Shown here piece by piece: positions 24,982-31,008 of a DNA stretch of 64,000 nt. Made by a program: the position numbers and the translations under genes. The stretch comes from the human T2T-CHM13v2.0 reference genome, Homo sapiens. The notes under the pieces were generated by a model. That model made no database searches. It saw only the letters and a list, made by a program, of their open reading frames with translations, and was not told the DNA's origin. Within the stretch, counting starts at the first letter, position 1, and every line of letters starts with the position of its first letter. The stretch spans positions 22,656,001 to 22,720,000 of the forward strand of contig CP086569.2 of assembly GCA_009914755.4 (NCBI GenBank). The letters are read 5' to 3'.

Positions 24982-25572
24982 TGTTGGGAAACCAGCCCCA
25001 CAATGCCCCGTGGGTACCCTAAATCCAACAGAGACAAATAATTAGAAAGAGACAGAATGAGAGTTTAAAAGGCAGGTCCAGGGGACCAGAGAATTGGAGG
25101 CTTGCTCATGGCCTGGAGCTCTCAGCCACCACCCAATTTATTGCTTTACAAGCTCTTTGTTCTTAGGGCAGATCTGAGGGGTAGGAAGGGCTGAGGGAAA
25201 GGATTAATCAGTGAGGGAGAACCCGTGAGTCATTCAATAAGATGTATAGCAGTAGCAGTTTCTGTGAATTTCCTCTAGCAAAGGCGTGTGTCTAAACTAC
25301 TTAATATATTTAACTTATCAGGACTGAAATGGATGGGAGAAGGCTTCAGGAGAAGCCAAGATGTTTGATTATACTCCACTGCTTCAAGAGAGTGTTATTT
25401 CCCTGAGCAACCTGTGGCAGCCCGCTGAGCTGTTATGCTCTCTGGGCATAAGGACATGAAGGCAATAAGGAGACTTTTCTCCTCAGAGGCCACCCATGGG
25501 AGTGACTCCCCATGGGAGTCTCACACCGGAGAGATCAACTCATTTGGCATCCCAGAAACTCTCTTTCCCACA
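24982..25572 (-). mobile_element. 3' LTR (591 bp) of the HML-type provirus
   Basis: Aligns with 30111-31008 apart from the Alu. The adjacent internal sequence in provirus sense is ..gagacaaaaaagtgggaca|TGTGGGAAAG, a purine-rich polypurine-tract-like run. Confidence 0.8.
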
Positions 25573-25689
25573 TGTCCCACTTTTTTGTCTCCATTTTTTT
25601 AAATTAATAACCACCATTGCTATCATAGCTCATTCACGGTGTCTATCTACTCTCCCAAGATGCTGTCTGCATCAGTAGGTTAAAAAAAA

Positions 25690-27470
25690 AACAGCATAAA
25701 AAGACACACACCAAAGTAATATTTGCAATTGATGATCCACCTATGGTTTTAATTCACTTTAAAGGATTAGTGTTAAAAAGGCCCTCAGTGGTTCCAGCAA
25801 GAATATCAGCTCTAGGCAACAGGATGGGATGAGCCTGAGATGCGGCAAAAAGTTGTTTTTTCAGTTTAGCAGGATCTAATGTTAAATTATCTTCTTCTCC
25901 TGGTAGGTGATGTCTAATCATCTCCCAGTGGTGTTCAGTGATATTATAAGAGCTAGGAGGAATACGAAATCAGAAGTATTCCAATCACATTGCATTTGAA
26001 TTCTATGCTCCAAGTTCATAATCCGATCTCCCATTCAGATTACTGTCTGATGATCATTAATTTGATTTGCCAATTTTTGATCTATTTGGCTTTGGGAATT
26101 CCAAAGCTTGGAAGAATTTTTCTGCCAACTATGCACAGCGCTCGCAGGTTGAATAGAAGAGTGCAAAGCAAAGCCAGCAGCAGCAGCTATAGCTGTGACA
26201 GATTTAAGACCCATGATGAGAGCTATTAAAGTAAATATGAATCTCTTTGATCATTAAGTATTTCTTTTAGTACTGCAGTGATAATATATATGGAGGAAGA
26301 GGACTCCCAAGTTCTATTGAGGGAAACAGGTATCCAAACTCCTTCTTGGGCCCTAACCAGTAAAATGCTATTATCTTTATTAAAGGTAGAATTAATGCAG
26401 GTAAAAATATGACAGCTGAGGCATGATATGCTTTGAGAGTCAAGCAGGATATTAACTTTTCCTGCTGCTAACATAAAAGGAGGTTTAACACAACTCTGTA
26501 ATGGGACTGTCTGATTAGATATCATGGCTACAACAAATTGAAGTTTTTTACTCTGGGTGTCTGTTTTATATTCTCCTTTCTGAATCCCAACTGGGGTTTG
26601 AGACATCATTAATTTCCACATTTTGGATGTTCTGGACTTATAATTGGATCAATCATTTTTGGCTTTGGAGGAGCCATACCGTTCTCTCCTACTTAATAGG
26701 GTAATTTGTTTCAATTCTTCTATATAATATTGGTACATTATCTGGGTAGTCGTTTGTAAAGGAGTCTCTCTAAAGTCTTTGCTCTGTCCAGTACAATTTA
26801 CTGAAAAGTGACCCCTAGGGGCCCAATCAGTGATGAATCCAATGGAATTATTTTCAATACTGCAGCACTGTTTGCAATACAGTCTTCCCAGGTTAGCATC
26901 TCTAGCTTTTCAGATCATTTAGTGGCCTGCCTGGGGCAGGACTTCTTATTAGGTTTAAATTTATTAATCTGATGATGTGTCATAACATAGCCATGCTCAA
27001 GGTATTTAATTGTGTCCAAAGATTGAAATGTTCTTCCACTGATTACATGAATAGAGGCCTTTCATCCATTATGTGCAGGGACATAAACCATCTGACATTG
27101 TTGATCATAATTTAAACATCCTGCTGTTGGCCCCAGGCAGATGGGAGGAAAGTGATAACCAATGGAAACTTTCATTAACATTCCTTCCTCCTCTGGATGA
27201 GTAGGACCTCAGTTATCTATTGGTCCAGGCATCCAGACACTAGCATTAACATAACCTTCACTGGGGCATCTAACCTTGTAACAGGTCTAATCAGTGGTGG
27301 GAATGGGATGTAGGTCCAATAAGTGTAATTTTGATCTGCCCCTCTGCAGGGAGACTCACCACCAAGGGGATTACCACCATCATAGCTACCATTAGATTAC
27401 TGGTGGTCAGCAGCTTGTGCTGAGACCTCAGTTTCTCTTCTTCAATGTGAGCTAGTCTCCTCATCTGCCC
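25690..27470 (-). pseudogene. env (SU and TM) of the HML-type provirus, nearly full length with frameshifts and stops
   Basis: Minus-strand translations include ..FITDWAPRGHFSVNCTGQS.. and ..TVPLQSCVKPPFMLAAGKVNILLDSQSISCLSCHIFTCINSTFNKDNSILLVRAQEGVWIPVSLNRTWESS.. on the SU side. TM-side matches are ..[68 protein letters not shown].. and ..[31 protein letters not shown].. All parallel HERV-K Env. Confidence 0.75.
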
Positions 27471-27699
27471 CCAGGTCAGTGGAGTTGTTTAGTGAGTTTT
27501 ACTGGTTTCCACCTGCTTAACAAAGATGTTCATCTGAGCCATCTGATGAACTGGTGGTGCAAGGACTTTCTGAGGTCTTTTCCTTTTGCTTGAATTCTGG
27601 CTCTTGGCACCACTTAACATGTCTTGTGGGTACCCAGAGAAGAAGCTGATTCTCTCCTGGTGAGATGCAAGCAAATCCTCACCCCCAAAAAGACCCACT

Positions 27700-27838
27700 G
27701 GGGCCTTTTGTTTGGGCCAGTTTTTTGGCTATTGATAAAGAACTATGATTGACATGTCTGCTCTTGTGTCGACCAGACCCTTAAATTGTTTTCCTTGAAT
27801 AGTGACCATACAAATAGGTCTATTGTCAGAGACTTGAT
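27700..27838 (-). pseudogene. Protease active-site region, with a mutated active site
   Basis: Minus-strand translation ..LVDTRADMSIIVLYQ*PKNWPKQKAPVGLFGG versus HERV-K ..LVDTGADVSIIALNQWPKNWPKQKAVTGLVG. The catalytic DTGAD has become DTRAD. Downstream, protease is truncated and joins env within about 250 bp, so RT, RNase H and integrase are absent. Confidence 0.65.
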
Positions 27839-28734: not shown

Positions 28735-29481
28735 GAATTTTTTTCCTGGTATCTTCAGCGTATAGTTCTGAGCTGATCAACAGACTCATCACCCATTACC
28801 ATCTGTTGATTTACAGTACCCAATGCCTGTCTGATTCCAAGCAATAGATCAGATGTGATATTAATGGGAGGTTGGGCTTGAGCATGTCTGCATGCCTGAT
28901 TTGTTGCTTCATCTGTCCACCAGGTTTTAAAATGGAGAAACTGAGAGGGAGACAGGGTGGATCGAGCTAATCACTCCCAATCCATAGGTATTAAATGCCA
29001 GTTATAAGCCACAAATTGTAATGAGGAATGAACATAAGAAGAATTTGGCCCATATTGTCCACTTGCTTGCTTTAAATCTTTTTTAATATTTTAAAGGGAA
29101 ATGGCTCCCAGCATGCCTCAGCATGTTCTCTGGGCTTTTCAGCTGGAGAAATAATTATTGGAAACTGCCAAGCATCGAAATCCCCTATTTCTTGTGCCTG
29201 TCAAATGGATGCCTGAATTGCCACTGCACCATAATTTGTATTTGGACTGGCTGGATGCCTGAATTGCCCCTGCACCATAATTTGTATTTGGACTGGCTTA
29301 CAGTATTTTTCTCCCATAATTAACAGGTGGACAAGCCTGGATCATTCCCTCACTGTAACTGGCTGTTGGGCTGTTGAAGCTTCCCTTTACCATAGTCAAT
29401 GGTAGGTCATGCAACAATGGGAGCAGCAAGCCACGTCTCAGTCTCCCATTCCAAAAACTCATAAGGCTGAGGTGGAGGTGG

Positions 29482-29955
29482 TCATTCTGCACCTTCCCCT
29501 AAAGGCACAGTAGGGGGAACTGTTTCTTTCATATGTTTTTGGAAGTTAGCATATATTCCTTCCCATTTCGCCCCTTTTTTTTTTAAACTAGACAGTGATG
29601 GTTCACTTTGCTGATTATCAGACTCCTGATTATTAAACTTTTCTATGTCATCCTGAAACTTCTCCTTCTTCTCCTCAGTGTGGAAGGGCTCCAGTGCTGT
29701 TTTAATTGCTGACCACCCAGAGCAAGTGGAGAAGGGAATATTGTGGCCCTCTTGGTGTGCTCCTTTTAAGTCTGGTCCGATCTTGTCCCAGTCTTTTACA
29801 TTCATGGTTCCATATTCTGGGAACCAAGGAGAATACTTTTCTATGAGATGGAAAACAGAGGTGAGATTCTGAGTACTCATAATTACTCCTCTATGGCTCA
29901 ATAACTGCTGCACCAGGCTTAAGTAATTAGCAAACTTGTTTTCACCCTGACCCAT
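29482..29955 (-). pseudogene. gag N-terminal (matrix) region of the HML-type provirus
   Basis: ORF MGQGENKFANYLSLVQQLLSHRGVIMSTQNLTSVFHLIEKYSPWFPEYGTMNVKDWDKIGPDLK.. parallels the HERV-K Gag N-terminus (MGQTKSK..YASYLSFIKILLKRGGVKVSTKNLIKLFQIIEQFCPWFPEQGTLDLKDWKRIGKELK). Confidence 0.8.
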
Positions 29956-30110
29956 ATTTTCCTGAGGTTGCCCTGGAATTCTCTGAGAGCCCTACTGACC
30001 TATAGAGCGTGAGTGAAAAGGTACTCAGCTGTCCTTTGTCAGTCATCCTCCACTTTCCATGCTCTGGCTTTTCCTCACTGGATTATTTGTAGATATTATA
30101 GGGAGCACCA

Positions 30111-31008
30111 TGTTGGGCACCAGATGTTGAGGAAAGAAGCCCCACACCAGCGGGTGGGTCCCCCAAGTCCAGCGGAGACAAAGGAATTAGAAAGAAGCAG
30201 AATGAGAGTTTAAAAGGCAGGTCCAGGGGACGGGAGAATTGGAGGCTTGCTCATGGCCCGGAGCTCTCAGCCTCCACTCAATTTATTGGTTTACAAGCTC
30301 TTTGTTCTTAGGTCAGATGGGAGGTGTAGGAAGGGATAAGGAAAAGGATTAATCAGTGATGGAGAACTCATGAGTCATTCAATAAGATGTATAGCAGTGG
30401 TGGTTTCTGTGAATTTCCTCTAGCAAAGGCATGTGTCTAAACTACTTAAGACTTTTAACAGCCGGGTGCAGTGGCTCACGCCTGTAATCCTAGCACTTTC
30501 GGAGGCCGAGGTGGACAGATCACGAGGTCAGGAGATCAAGACCACGGTGAAACGCTGTCTCTACTAAAAATACAAAAAATTAGCTGGGCACAGTGGTGGG
30601 GGTCTGTAGTCCCAGCTACTTGGGATGCTGAGGCAGGAGAATGGTGTGAACCTGGGCGGTGGAGCTTGCAGTGAGCCAAGATCGCACCACTGCACTCCAG
30701 CCTGGACGAGAGAGTGAGACTCCGTCTCAAAAATAATAATGATAAAAATAATAAAAATAACTTATTGGGACTGAAATGGGTGGGAGTGGGTTTCAGGAGA
30801 AGACAAGATATTTGATTGCACGCCACTGCTTCAAGGGAGTGTTATTTCCCTGAGCAACCTGTAGCATGCCACTGAGCTATTATGCTCTCAACATGACATG
30901 AAGGCAATAAGGAGCCTTTTCTCCTCAGAGGCCACGCATGGCTCCCCATGGCTGTCTCACACAGGGGAGACCAACTCATCTGGCATCCCAGAAACTCTCT
31001 TTCCCACA
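30111..31008 (-). mobile_element. 5' LTR of the HML-type provirus (about 595 bp plus a 303 bp Alu insertion)
   Basis: Homologous to 24982-25572. A 150 bp leader lies between the LTR and the gag ATG at 29955. The candidate primer-binding site (PBS) TGGTGCTCCCTAT immediately 3' of the LTR (provirus sense) matches the tRNA-Ile(UAU)-type 3' end for about 9 nt. This is tentative. Confidence 0.75.
30459..30761 (+). mobile_element. Alu (AluS/Y-like) inserted into the 5' LTR
   Basis: ggccgggtgcagtggctcacgcctgtaatcctagcactttcggaggccgaggtggacagatcacgaggtcaggagatcaagacc ... gcactccagcctggacgagagagtgagactccgtctcaaaaataataat. It is absent from the otherwise collinear 3' LTR. Confidence 0.9.

What the first reader, a model, noticed from the sequence alone, without database searches (positions are those of the whole stretch)
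24982..31008. Betaretrovirus-like (HML-group) provirus with a clean 6 bp target-site duplication, lost pol, near-complete env and an Ile-like primer-binding site
Both LTRs are present (about 590 bp, TG..CA) and the flanks duplicate GAGAAT. Gag (MGQGENKF..), dUTPase (..GVVDSDCQGEIQIV..RIAQLLLLP..), protease (the catalytic DTGAD has become DTRAD) and a ~1.8 kb env are recognisable. RT, RNase H and integrase are missing: protease joins env within ~250 bp. The candidate PBS TGGTGCTCC.. resembles the tRNA-Ile(UAU) 3' end. Together with the ~590 bp LTR this would fit HML-5 (HERVK22-type) rather than HML-2, but this is tentative.
Basis: partly seen in the sequence, partly recalled or inferred. Interest (0 to 1): 0.5.

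Follow-up and report, generated by a model that had tools for sequence, protein, structure and literature searches.

The report
Known HERV-K(HML-9) provirus on human Y
This is an ordinary, already catalogued, dead endogenous retrovirus of the HERV-K(HML-9)/HERVK14C family on the human Y chromosome next to an RBMY1 gene; it is not HML-5 and its primer-binding site is of the lysine type, not isoleucine.

Summary
A 6,027-bp provirus lies on the minus strand at 24982-31008, with TG..CA LTRs, a real GAGAAT target-site duplication, and gag, dUTPase, a half protease (DTRAD) and a full-length but broken env. RT, RNase H and most of integrase are missing.

Window 24985-29579 matches hg38 chrY:21845475-21850069 at all but 2 of 4,595 bases. 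That locus is HML-9 provirus no. 15 (Yq11.223) in Jia et al. 2022. The LTRs are LTR14C-type (586 and 591 bp) and the interior is colinear with full-length HML-9.

The true primer-binding site sits 2 nt after the 5' LTR: TGGTGCCCAACATGGTGC, which is tRNA-Lys1,2 with 3 mismatches.

The pro-pol deletion (2.75 kb, at an 8-bp microhomology) and a 132-bp deletion in the nucleocapsid (NC) part of gag are also found at 6p12.3, 19q13.2 and other Y copies. They therefore predate integration and mark a defective variant that was copied in trans.

The Alu is shared with at least two other Y copies, so this locus was later multiplied by Y segmental duplication. One small new point: the published entry cuts off the 5' 1.4 kb. 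Interest is low.

The parts
24976..24981 (.). Target-site duplication copy GAGAAT, on the 3' side of the provirus
   Evidence: Paralogous uninterrupted repeat units carry a single copy of this hexamer.
24982..25572 (-). 3' LTR, LTR14C type, 591 bp, TG..CA, with AATAAA at LTR position 431
25573..25592 (-). Polypurine tract region (GGAGACAAAAAAGTGGGACA) abutting the 3' LTR
   Evidence: same position as in 16p12.3
25574..27620 (-). env pseudogene, full length (~2.05 kb; 99.3 % coverage per Jia et al.). It is split over all three frames with several stops. Surface (SU) and transmembrane (TM) subunits are recognisable.
   Evidence: Pfam HERV-K_REC-like N-terminus, HERV-K_env_2 and GP41; ATG at 27620
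27613..27678 (-). Remnant of the integrase C-terminal domain, overlapping the env start
   Evidence: weak Pfam IN_DBD_C hit, E 0.002, below the curated cut-off; aligns to 16p12.3 positions 5874 onward
27671..27691 (-). Junction of the 2.75-kb pro-pol deletion (16p12.3 positions ~3139-5873), at the microhomology TGGGGTCA
   Evidence: the same junction is present at 6p12.3, 19q13.2 and Y copy no. 10
27684..27827 (-). N-terminal half of the protease. The active-site DTGAD has become DTRAD at 27756-27770, a change private to this copy.
   Evidence: Pfam RVP positions 2-49 of 101; the paralogue keeps DTGAD
27884..28171 (-). dUTPase domain in the pro frame
   Evidence: Pfam dUTPase E 5e-15; best solved relative is the 2d4l dUTPase, E 5e-17
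28258..29955 (-). gag pseudogene (MA, CA, one NC zinc knuckle), starting MGQGENKF at 29955. It has a 132-bp deletion in the nucleocapsid (NC) region, with the junction at 28306-28322. The 3' boundary is approximate.
   Evidence: Pfam Gag_p10, Gag_p24 and Gag_p24_C
29206..29297 (-). 46-bp tandem duplication inside gag, private to this copy
   Evidence: absent from all other catalogue sequences
30105..30122 (-). Primer-binding site TGGTGCCCAACATGGTGC, tRNA-Lys1,2 type with 3 mismatches
30125..31008 (-). 5' LTR, LTR14C type: 586 bp of LTR interrupted by an Alu
30460..30758 (+). Alu (AluY-like) inserted in U3 of the 5' LTR. It is shared with Y paralogues chrY:21580120 and chrY:9273707.
31009..31014 (.). 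Target-site duplication copy GAGAAT, on the 5' side of the provirus

Best explanation
The element is the human Y-chromosome (Yq11.223) HERV-K(HML-9)/HERVK14C provirus catalogued as chrY:21845475-21850069. It is a non-functional molecular fossil.

Inferred history:
1. An HML-9 genome acquired two internal deletions. One removes 132 bp of the nucleocapsid (NC) part of gag. The other removes 2.75 kb, from mid-protease to the integrase C-terminus. The large deletion joins two TGGGGTCA motifs, as expected from template switching by reverse transcriptase.
2. This defective genome kept its LTRs, Lys primer-binding site, polypurine tract, gag and env. Enzymes from intact HML-9 viruses copied it in trans. 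It integrated independently at 6p12.3, 19q13.2 and once on the Y.
3. The Y integration made the 6-bp GAGAAT duplication inside a unit of a ~2.5-kb tandem array about 29 kb from an RBMY1 gene.
4. An AluY-like element then inserted into the 5' LTR.
5. The whole segment was later copied by Y-chromosomal segmental duplication, including an inverted copy 265 kb away at chrY:21580120. After that, this copy acquired its private 46-bp duplication, the DTGAD-to-DTRAD change and many stops.

Steps 3 to 5 and the identity of the locus are shown here. Steps 1 and 2 are inferred from shared junctions and LTR relationships.
For: Identity:
- Window 24985-29579 matches the published HML-9 entry without gaps, 2 mismatches in 4,595.
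- Alignment with full-length HML-9 16p12.3 is colinear at 85-89 %, LTRs included.
- The first 21 nt of the LTR occur in 6 catalogued LTR14C solo LTRs.
- RBMY1 3' exons lie at 59874-64000, as expected for that Y position.

Primer-binding site: 3 mismatches to Lys1,2, against 7 to Lys3. The site is homologous to the sites listed for other HML-9 loci.

Shared deletions:
- The same NC junction is present at 6p12.3 and Y copy no. 10.
- The same pro-pol junction is present at 6p12.3, 19q13.2 and Y copy no. 10.
- The catalogue gives pro ~65 % and pol ~6 % coverage for seven loci.

Independent integration of the Y and 6p12.3 copies:
- LTRs pair by locus. Four-point sums are 0.259 against 0.283 and 0.305.
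- 15 derived sites are shared by all three Y LTRs.

Segmental duplication on the Y:
- Alignment with chrY:21580120 runs straight through the Alu at 90-92 % identity.
- 10 derived sites are shared only by the two 5' LTRs, and none support the alternative groupings.
- The Alu/LTR junction 14-mer also occurs in chrY:9273707.

Duplication of the target site: single-copy GAGAAT in paralogous empty units.
Against: - No Dfam or RepeatMasker run was possible, and I had no HML-1 to HML-8 or HML-10 reference sequences. Separation from other HML groups therefore rests on the published catalogue and its phylogeny, not on my own tree.
- The target-site duplications of the 6p12.3 and 19q13.2 copies could not be seen, because the catalogue sequences have no flanks. 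Their independence rests on LTR relationships only.
- Recurrent deletion at the same microhomology is unlikely but not formally excluded.
- The passage showing the 19q13.2 junction was assigned to that locus by its position in the file, not by a visible header.
- Gene coordinates for RBMY1A1 and RBMY1D, used to describe the symmetry of the inverted duplication, are from memory.
Confidence: 0.9

Rival explanations
1. One reading: an HML-5 (HERVK22/LTR22) provirus primed by tRNA-Ile.
For: TGGTGCTCC is present 14 nt after the 5' LTR. From memory, it matches the first 9 nt of the complement of the tRNA-Ile(UAU) 3' end. The LTR is ~590 bp.
Against: - The locus is a published HML-9 entry.
- It is 85-92 % identical along its whole length to other HML-9 proviruses.
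- LTR14C is 587 bp.
- A better primer-binding site at the canonical offset of 2 nt matches Lys1,2 at 15 of 18 positions. The 'Ile' motif matches only 11 of 18 and overlaps that site.
Confidence: 0.01
2. The pol deletion happened at this locus after integration, as ordinary decay of a once complete provirus.
For: Internal deletions are common in old proviruses. The microhomology at the junction would also fit replication slippage in the host genome.
Against: The identical junction and the identical second deletion in NC are present at 6p12.3. The pro-pol junction is also present at 19q13.2 and in the other Y copies. The LTRs of the 6p12.3 and Y copies pair by locus.
Confidence: 0.04
3. The deleted copies on chromosomes 6, 19 and Y are DNA-level duplicates of one integration (interchromosomal transposition), not separate integrations of a defective virus.
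For: The Y has acquired autosomal segments before. The distance between this copy's 5' LTR and the 6p12.3 5' LTR (0.129-0.144) is about the same as between this copy's two LTRs.
Against: - The four-point test groups LTRs by locus.
- 15 derived states are shared by both Y LTRs (plus the paralogue) but not by either 6p12.3 LTR.
- The LTR Alu is absent from 6p12.3, which has its own Alu in env.
Confidence: 0.06
4. Each Y-linked HML-9 copy is its own integration event, reflecting a preference of HML-9 for the Y, as the catalogue paper suggests.
For: Jia et al. report significantly more proviruses on the Y than expected.
Against: At least three Y copies share the same Alu at the same LTR position. 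Derived 5'-LTR substitutions are shared between this copy and copy no. 10. The two loci are in opposite orientation, each overlapped antisense by a long non-coding RNA.
Confidence: 0.03

Closest known systems
HERV-K(HML-9) = HERVK14C internal region with LTR14C (Flockerzi et al. 2005, from memory; Jia et al. 2022, PMC9178832), specifically locus no. 15, Yq11.223, chrY:21845475-21850069
   Same: The sequence matches at 4,593 of 4,595 bases. LTR length and sequence, gene order, Lys-type primer-binding site, the pro-pol and NC deletions and the env coverage all agree.
   Different: The published entry stops at window position 29579 and lists 5' LTR 0 %, gag 71 % and no LTR-LTR age. The window shows the remaining 1.4 kb: the gag start, leader, primer-binding site, the Alu-split 5' LTR and the duplication. 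The two base differences suggest another assembly or haplotype.
Paralogue HML-9 no. 10, Yq11.223, chrY:21580120-21585551 (overlaps TTTY13)
   Same: It has the same two deletions and the same Alu at the same 5' LTR position. It is 90-92 % identical and colinear. Its primer-binding site differs at 2 of 18 positions.
   Different: It is in the opposite orientation, 265 kb away. It keeps DTGAD, lacks the 46-bp duplication, and its 3' LTR is truncated to 16 %.
HML-9 6p12.3 (chr6:48873675-48879725) and 19q13.2, autosomal members of the same deleted subfamily
   Same: The pro-pol junction is identical in both. The NC deletion is identical in 6p12.3 and was not checked in 19q13.2. Identity with 6p12.3 is 84-88 %.
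   Different: They are separate integrations, since LTRs pair by locus. 6p12.3 has no LTR Alu and carries an unrelated Alu in env.
   Same: It belongs to the same supergroup (class II, betaretrovirus-like, with a dUTPase in the pro frame).
   Different: It is a different LTR family and a different internal family. The primer-binding site here is Lys-type.
Trans-complemented defective retroviral genomes
   Same: The genome lacks its own RT and IN but keeps the cis-acting sequences, and it is found at several independent sites.
   Different: No experiment was done. The dependence on a helper virus is inferred.

Membership tests
HERV-K(HML-9) / HERVK14C-LTR14C | LTRs homologous to LTR14C (~587 bp) | tested here: met
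   The LTRs are 586 and 591 bp. They are 84-88 % identical over their full length to the LTRs of catalogued HML-9 16p12.3 and 6p12.3. The first 21 nt occur in 6 LTR14C solo LTRs. The reference length is given.
HERV-K(HML-9) / HERVK14C-LTR14C | Internal region colinear with HERVK14C (gag-pro-pol-env) | tested here: met
   blastn against full-length 16p12.3 gives four colinear blocks at 85-89 %. The only breaks are the Alu, the 46-bp duplication and the two deletions.
HERV-K(HML-9) / HERVK14C-LTR14C | Locus listed in the published HML-9 catalogue | tested here: met
   2 mismatches in 4,595 bases against Dataset S1 entry chrY_21845475_21850069.
HERV-K(HML-9) / HERVK14C-LTR14C | Phylogenetic separation from HML-1 to HML-8 and HML-10 | not testable with these tools
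   No reference sequences of the other HML groups were available. Jia et al. report that the env elements with more than 90 % coverage, a class this locus falls in, cluster as HML-9.
HERV-K (lysine-primed class II ERVs) | Primer-binding site complementary to the tRNA-Lys 3' end, just after the 5' LTR | tested here: met
   TGGTGCCCAACATGGTGC lies 2 nt after the LTR. 15 of 18 positions match the Lys1,2 site, and two of the three differences are CpG-to-TpG or CpA changes.
Betaretrovirus-like (class II) provirus | dUTPase encoded between gag and protease; MA (p10), CA (p24) and NC gag domains; 6-bp target-site duplication | tested here: met
   Pfam order is Gag_p10, Gag_p24, Gag_p24_C, dUTPase, RVP. 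The best solved dUTPase is the 2d4l entry, which from memory is Mason-Pfizer monkey virus. The 6-bp duplication was verified against empty paralogous units.
HML-5 (HERVK22/LTR22) | Non-lysine (Ile or Met type) primer-binding site | tested here: not met
   The site at the canonical position is Lys1,2-like. The Ile-like string matches only 11 of 18 positions of an Ile(UAU) complement recalled from memory, and it overlaps the true site.
HML-5 (HERVK22/LTR22) | Homology to the LTR22 and HERVK22 consensus sequences | not tested
   No HML-5 reference was available. The point is made moot by identity to an HML-9 catalogue entry.
Functional or replication-competent provirus | Intact gag, pro, pol and env reading frames | tested here: not met
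   The longest ORF is 181 codons. RT, RNase H and IN are absent. The protease is halved and its motif mutated. env is spread over three frames.

The most novel reading that the evidence does not exclude
The reported excess of HML-9 'integrations' on the Y (Jia et al. 2022) may be largely an artefact. At least three of the eight Y entries (nos. 8, 10 and 15), and perhaps most of them, descend from one integration of a pol-deleted, trans-mobilised HML-9 variant into a 2.5-kb tandem array. That integration was then amplified passively together with the RBMY1 region. In addition, the catalogue under-annotates this locus, which in fact has both LTRs, a primer-binding site and a target-site duplication. 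Flockerzi et al. 2005 probably already described much of this. I recall that paper from memory and could not read it here.
Probability: 0.75. Interest if true: 0.15.

Novelty: already known. Interest (0 to 1): 0.1.

Why it matters
It matters little. The locus is a catalogued, inactive HERV. The useful outcomes are corrections:
- The group is HML-9, not HML-5.
- The primer-binding site is Lys, not Ile.
- The published entry for this locus is truncated at its 5' end.
- The Y-linked HML-9 copies should not be counted as independent integrations when testing for chromosomal bias or when dating by LTR divergence.

The shared deletion junctions are a tidy example of a defective retroviral genome that spread with help from intact relatives.

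Tried and rejected
- An Rfam scan of the whole window found nothing at gathering thresholds.
- Flockerzi et al. 2005, the original HERV-K14C paper, is not held under its DOI or its PMC id. What I say about it is from memory.
- Exact k-mer searches of the catalogue with this copy's primer-binding site, gag start and Alu junctions found nothing at first. There were two reasons: the published entry is truncated, and the paralogues are 8-10 % diverged. Reading the sequences themselves and using shorter k-mers resolved this.
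- My first guess, that the window was the 6p12.3 locus (similar length and structure), was rejected. That sequence is only ~87 % identical.
- The Ile primer-binding site was considered and rejected.
- I looked in two papers for the identity of the ~2.5-kb tandem array that hosts the provirus, without success.
- I did not use the large protein-database, structure-prediction or contig-collection tools. The identity was settled by direct sequence comparison.

Full report
**1. The observation**

The region holds a provirus on the minus strand. Direct repeats of ~590 nt lie 5.1-5.4 kb apart.

- The 3' LTR is window 24982-25572 (591 bp).
- The 5' LTR is 30125-31008. It is 884 bp because a 299-bp plus-strand Alu (30460-30758) splits 586 bp of LTR.
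- Both LTRs begin TGTGGG and end CCAACA.
- GAGAAT abuts both ends, at 24976-24981 and 31009-31014.

Pfam finds, in order, Gag_p10, Gag_p24, Gag_p24_C, dUTPase, RVP, a weak integrase C-terminal hit, a HERV-K Rec/env N-terminus, HERV-K_env_2 and GP41. It finds no RT, RNase H or integrase core. The RVP hit covers only profile positions 2-49 of 101, so half the protease is missing too. No ORF exceeds 181 codons. gag and env are each spread over all three frames.

**2. The duplication is real**

The window offers an internal control.

- Positions ~146-15300 hold a tandem array with a 2.45-2.5-kb period.
- The same array lies in inverted orientation at 15593-24971 and 31028-~44500.
- The provirus sits inside one unit of the inverted block.
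- A reconstructed empty site (left flank, one GAGAAT, right flank) aligns without a break to at least eight other units.
- At the insertion point these units carry one hexamer. Four have GAGAAT and the others have GAGGAT, GAGAAA, GAGAAC and AACAAC.

So GAGAAT was single-copy in the target and was duplicated on integration.

**3. Identity**

The LTR length and the gag ~92 %, pro ~65 %, pol ~6 %, env ~99 % pattern match several entries in the HML-9 catalogue of Jia et al. 2022 (PMC9178832). The catalogue's sequence file holds an entry, chrY_21845475_21850069, that equals window 24985-29579. The match has no gaps and 2 mismatches in 4,595 bases. Residues 398-496 match at 100 %. That fits this part of Yq11.223.

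Against the full-length HML-9 provirus 16p12.3, the element is colinear at 85-89 %, LTRs included. HML-9 corresponds to HERVK14C/LTR14C and HML-5 to HERVK22/LTR22. I could not run Dfam or build my own tree against the other HML groups. That separation rests on the catalogue's phylogeny.

**4. Primer-binding site**

Two nucleotides after the 5' LTR comes TGGTGCCCAACATGGTGC (window 30122-30105).

- The tRNA-Lys1,2 site is TGGCGCCCAACGTGGGGC (PMC8775094).
- The window's site differs from it at 3 positions, two of them CpG decay.
- It differs at 7 positions from Lys3.
- It differs at 2 positions from the site listed for the Y paralogue, and at 4 from the HML-9 consensus site.
It matches only 11 of 18 positions of the Ile(UAU) complement as I recall it.

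**5. The deletions predate integration**

Relative to 16p12.3, two segments are missing.

- The first is 132 bp in the nucleocapsid (NC) part of gag.
- The second is ~2.75 kb, from mid-protease (position ~3139) to the integrase C-terminus (~5873).
- The large deletion joins two TGGGGTCA motifs.

The autosomal provirus 6p12.3 has both junctions. So does Y copy no. 10. A passage that by file position belongs to 19q13.2 shows the pro-pol junction as well.

The 6p12.3 and Y copies are separate integrations.

- In a four-point test their LTRs pair by locus (sums 0.259 against 0.283 and 0.305).
- 15 derived states are shared by all three Y LTRs but not by the 6p12.3 or 16p12.3 LTRs.

The simplest reading is a defective HML-9 genome, made by template switching, that was packaged and reverse-transcribed by enzymes from intact relatives. 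This step is inferred, not shown. As I recall, Flockerzi et al. 2005 already reported 'uniform deletions' in this family. I could not retrieve that paper.

**6. After integration**

Y copy no. 10 (chrY:21580120-21585551, opposite strand, 265 kb away) aligns with this element straight through the Alu at 90-92 % identity. The two Alu/LTR junctions are at the same LTR position.

- The two 5' LTRs share 10 derived substitutions that the 3' LTR lacks. No sites support the other groupings.
- The Alu/LTR junction 14-mer also occurs in chrY:9273707 (no. 8).

So one integration, followed by one Alu insertion, was later copied at least twice by Y segmental duplication. RBMY1 regions 1 and 2 are known to undergo inversion between them (PMC6687947). 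Both paralogues are overlapped antisense by long non-coding RNAs, TTTY13 and AC024236.1.

Features private to this copy are the 46-bp tandem duplication in gag (29206-29297) and the DTGAD-to-DTRAD change.

**7. Age**

LTR-LTR K2P is 0.130 over 580 sites. With the catalogue's own formula this gives about 32 Myr. That is in line with the 35-48 Myr it reports for other Y copies, and older than the 17-27 Myr it reports for autosomal ones. The two paralogous 5' LTRs differ by 0.104. The duplication therefore followed integration by roughly a quarter of the elapsed time. The higher male-line mutation rate probably inflates all Y figures.

**8. What is new**

Very little is new. The catalogue lists this locus as lacking a 5' LTR, with gag at 71 % and no LTR age. 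The window shows that the missing 1.4 kb is there. The shared Alu also means the Y 'enrichment' reported in the catalogue counts duplicates of one event.

**9. Verdict**

The general class (HML-supergroup betaretrovirus-like provirus, pol-deleted) is right. The HML-5 and Ile specifics are wrong. The element is an already known, inactive HML-9 provirus, and interest is low.

Noticed in passing
window 146-15300, and in inverted orientation 15593-24971 plus 31028-~44500: A large, old tandem array with a 2.45-2.5-kb period (units 60-83 % identical), present as two blocks in opposite orientation that meet near 15.4 kb. The provirus is inserted in one unit. I could not name the repeat family. My candidates, from memory only, are TTY2-type or SST1-type Y arrays.
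   Followed up: partly
window 59874-64000, minus strand: 3' exons of an RBMY1 gene. The SRGY-box exons repeat every ~545 bp between 60.6 and 63.0 kb. The gene runs off the window end.
   Followed up: partly
window 24985-29579 compared with hg38 chrY:21845475-21850069: There are two single-base differences from the hg38-derived catalogue sequence: 26125 C vs A and 26519 A vs C. This suggests the window comes from another human assembly or Y haplotype.
   Followed up: no
window 29580-31008: The published HML-9 catalogue entry for this locus ends at 29579, at a T-run in gag. It reports no 5' LTR. The gag start, leader, primer-binding site, Alu-split 5' LTR and target-site duplication are all present beyond that point.
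   Followed up: yes
window 16428-16511: A 24-bp unit, ACCAATCAGCACTCTGTAAAATGG, repeated 3.5 times. From memory it resembles the CCAAT-box repeats of LTR12 (HERV9) LTRs.
   Followed up: no
window 57508-57599 and 47211-47259: A 46-bp unit repeated twice (89 % match) about 2 kb downstream of the RBMY1 3' end, and a (TA)24 microsatellite.
   Followed up: no
6p12.3 catalogue sequence (chr6:48873675-48879725), env region: This autosomal member of the same deleted subfamily carries its own, unrelated Alu insertion inside env, followed by a (CAAA)n-type tail.
   Followed up: no
window 24982-31008, plus strand: According to the catalogue's Table S1, the long non-coding RNA AC024236.1 overlaps the provirus in antisense. 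The inverted paralogue is overlapped in antisense by TTTY13. The two transcripts are likely paralogous.
   Followed up: no
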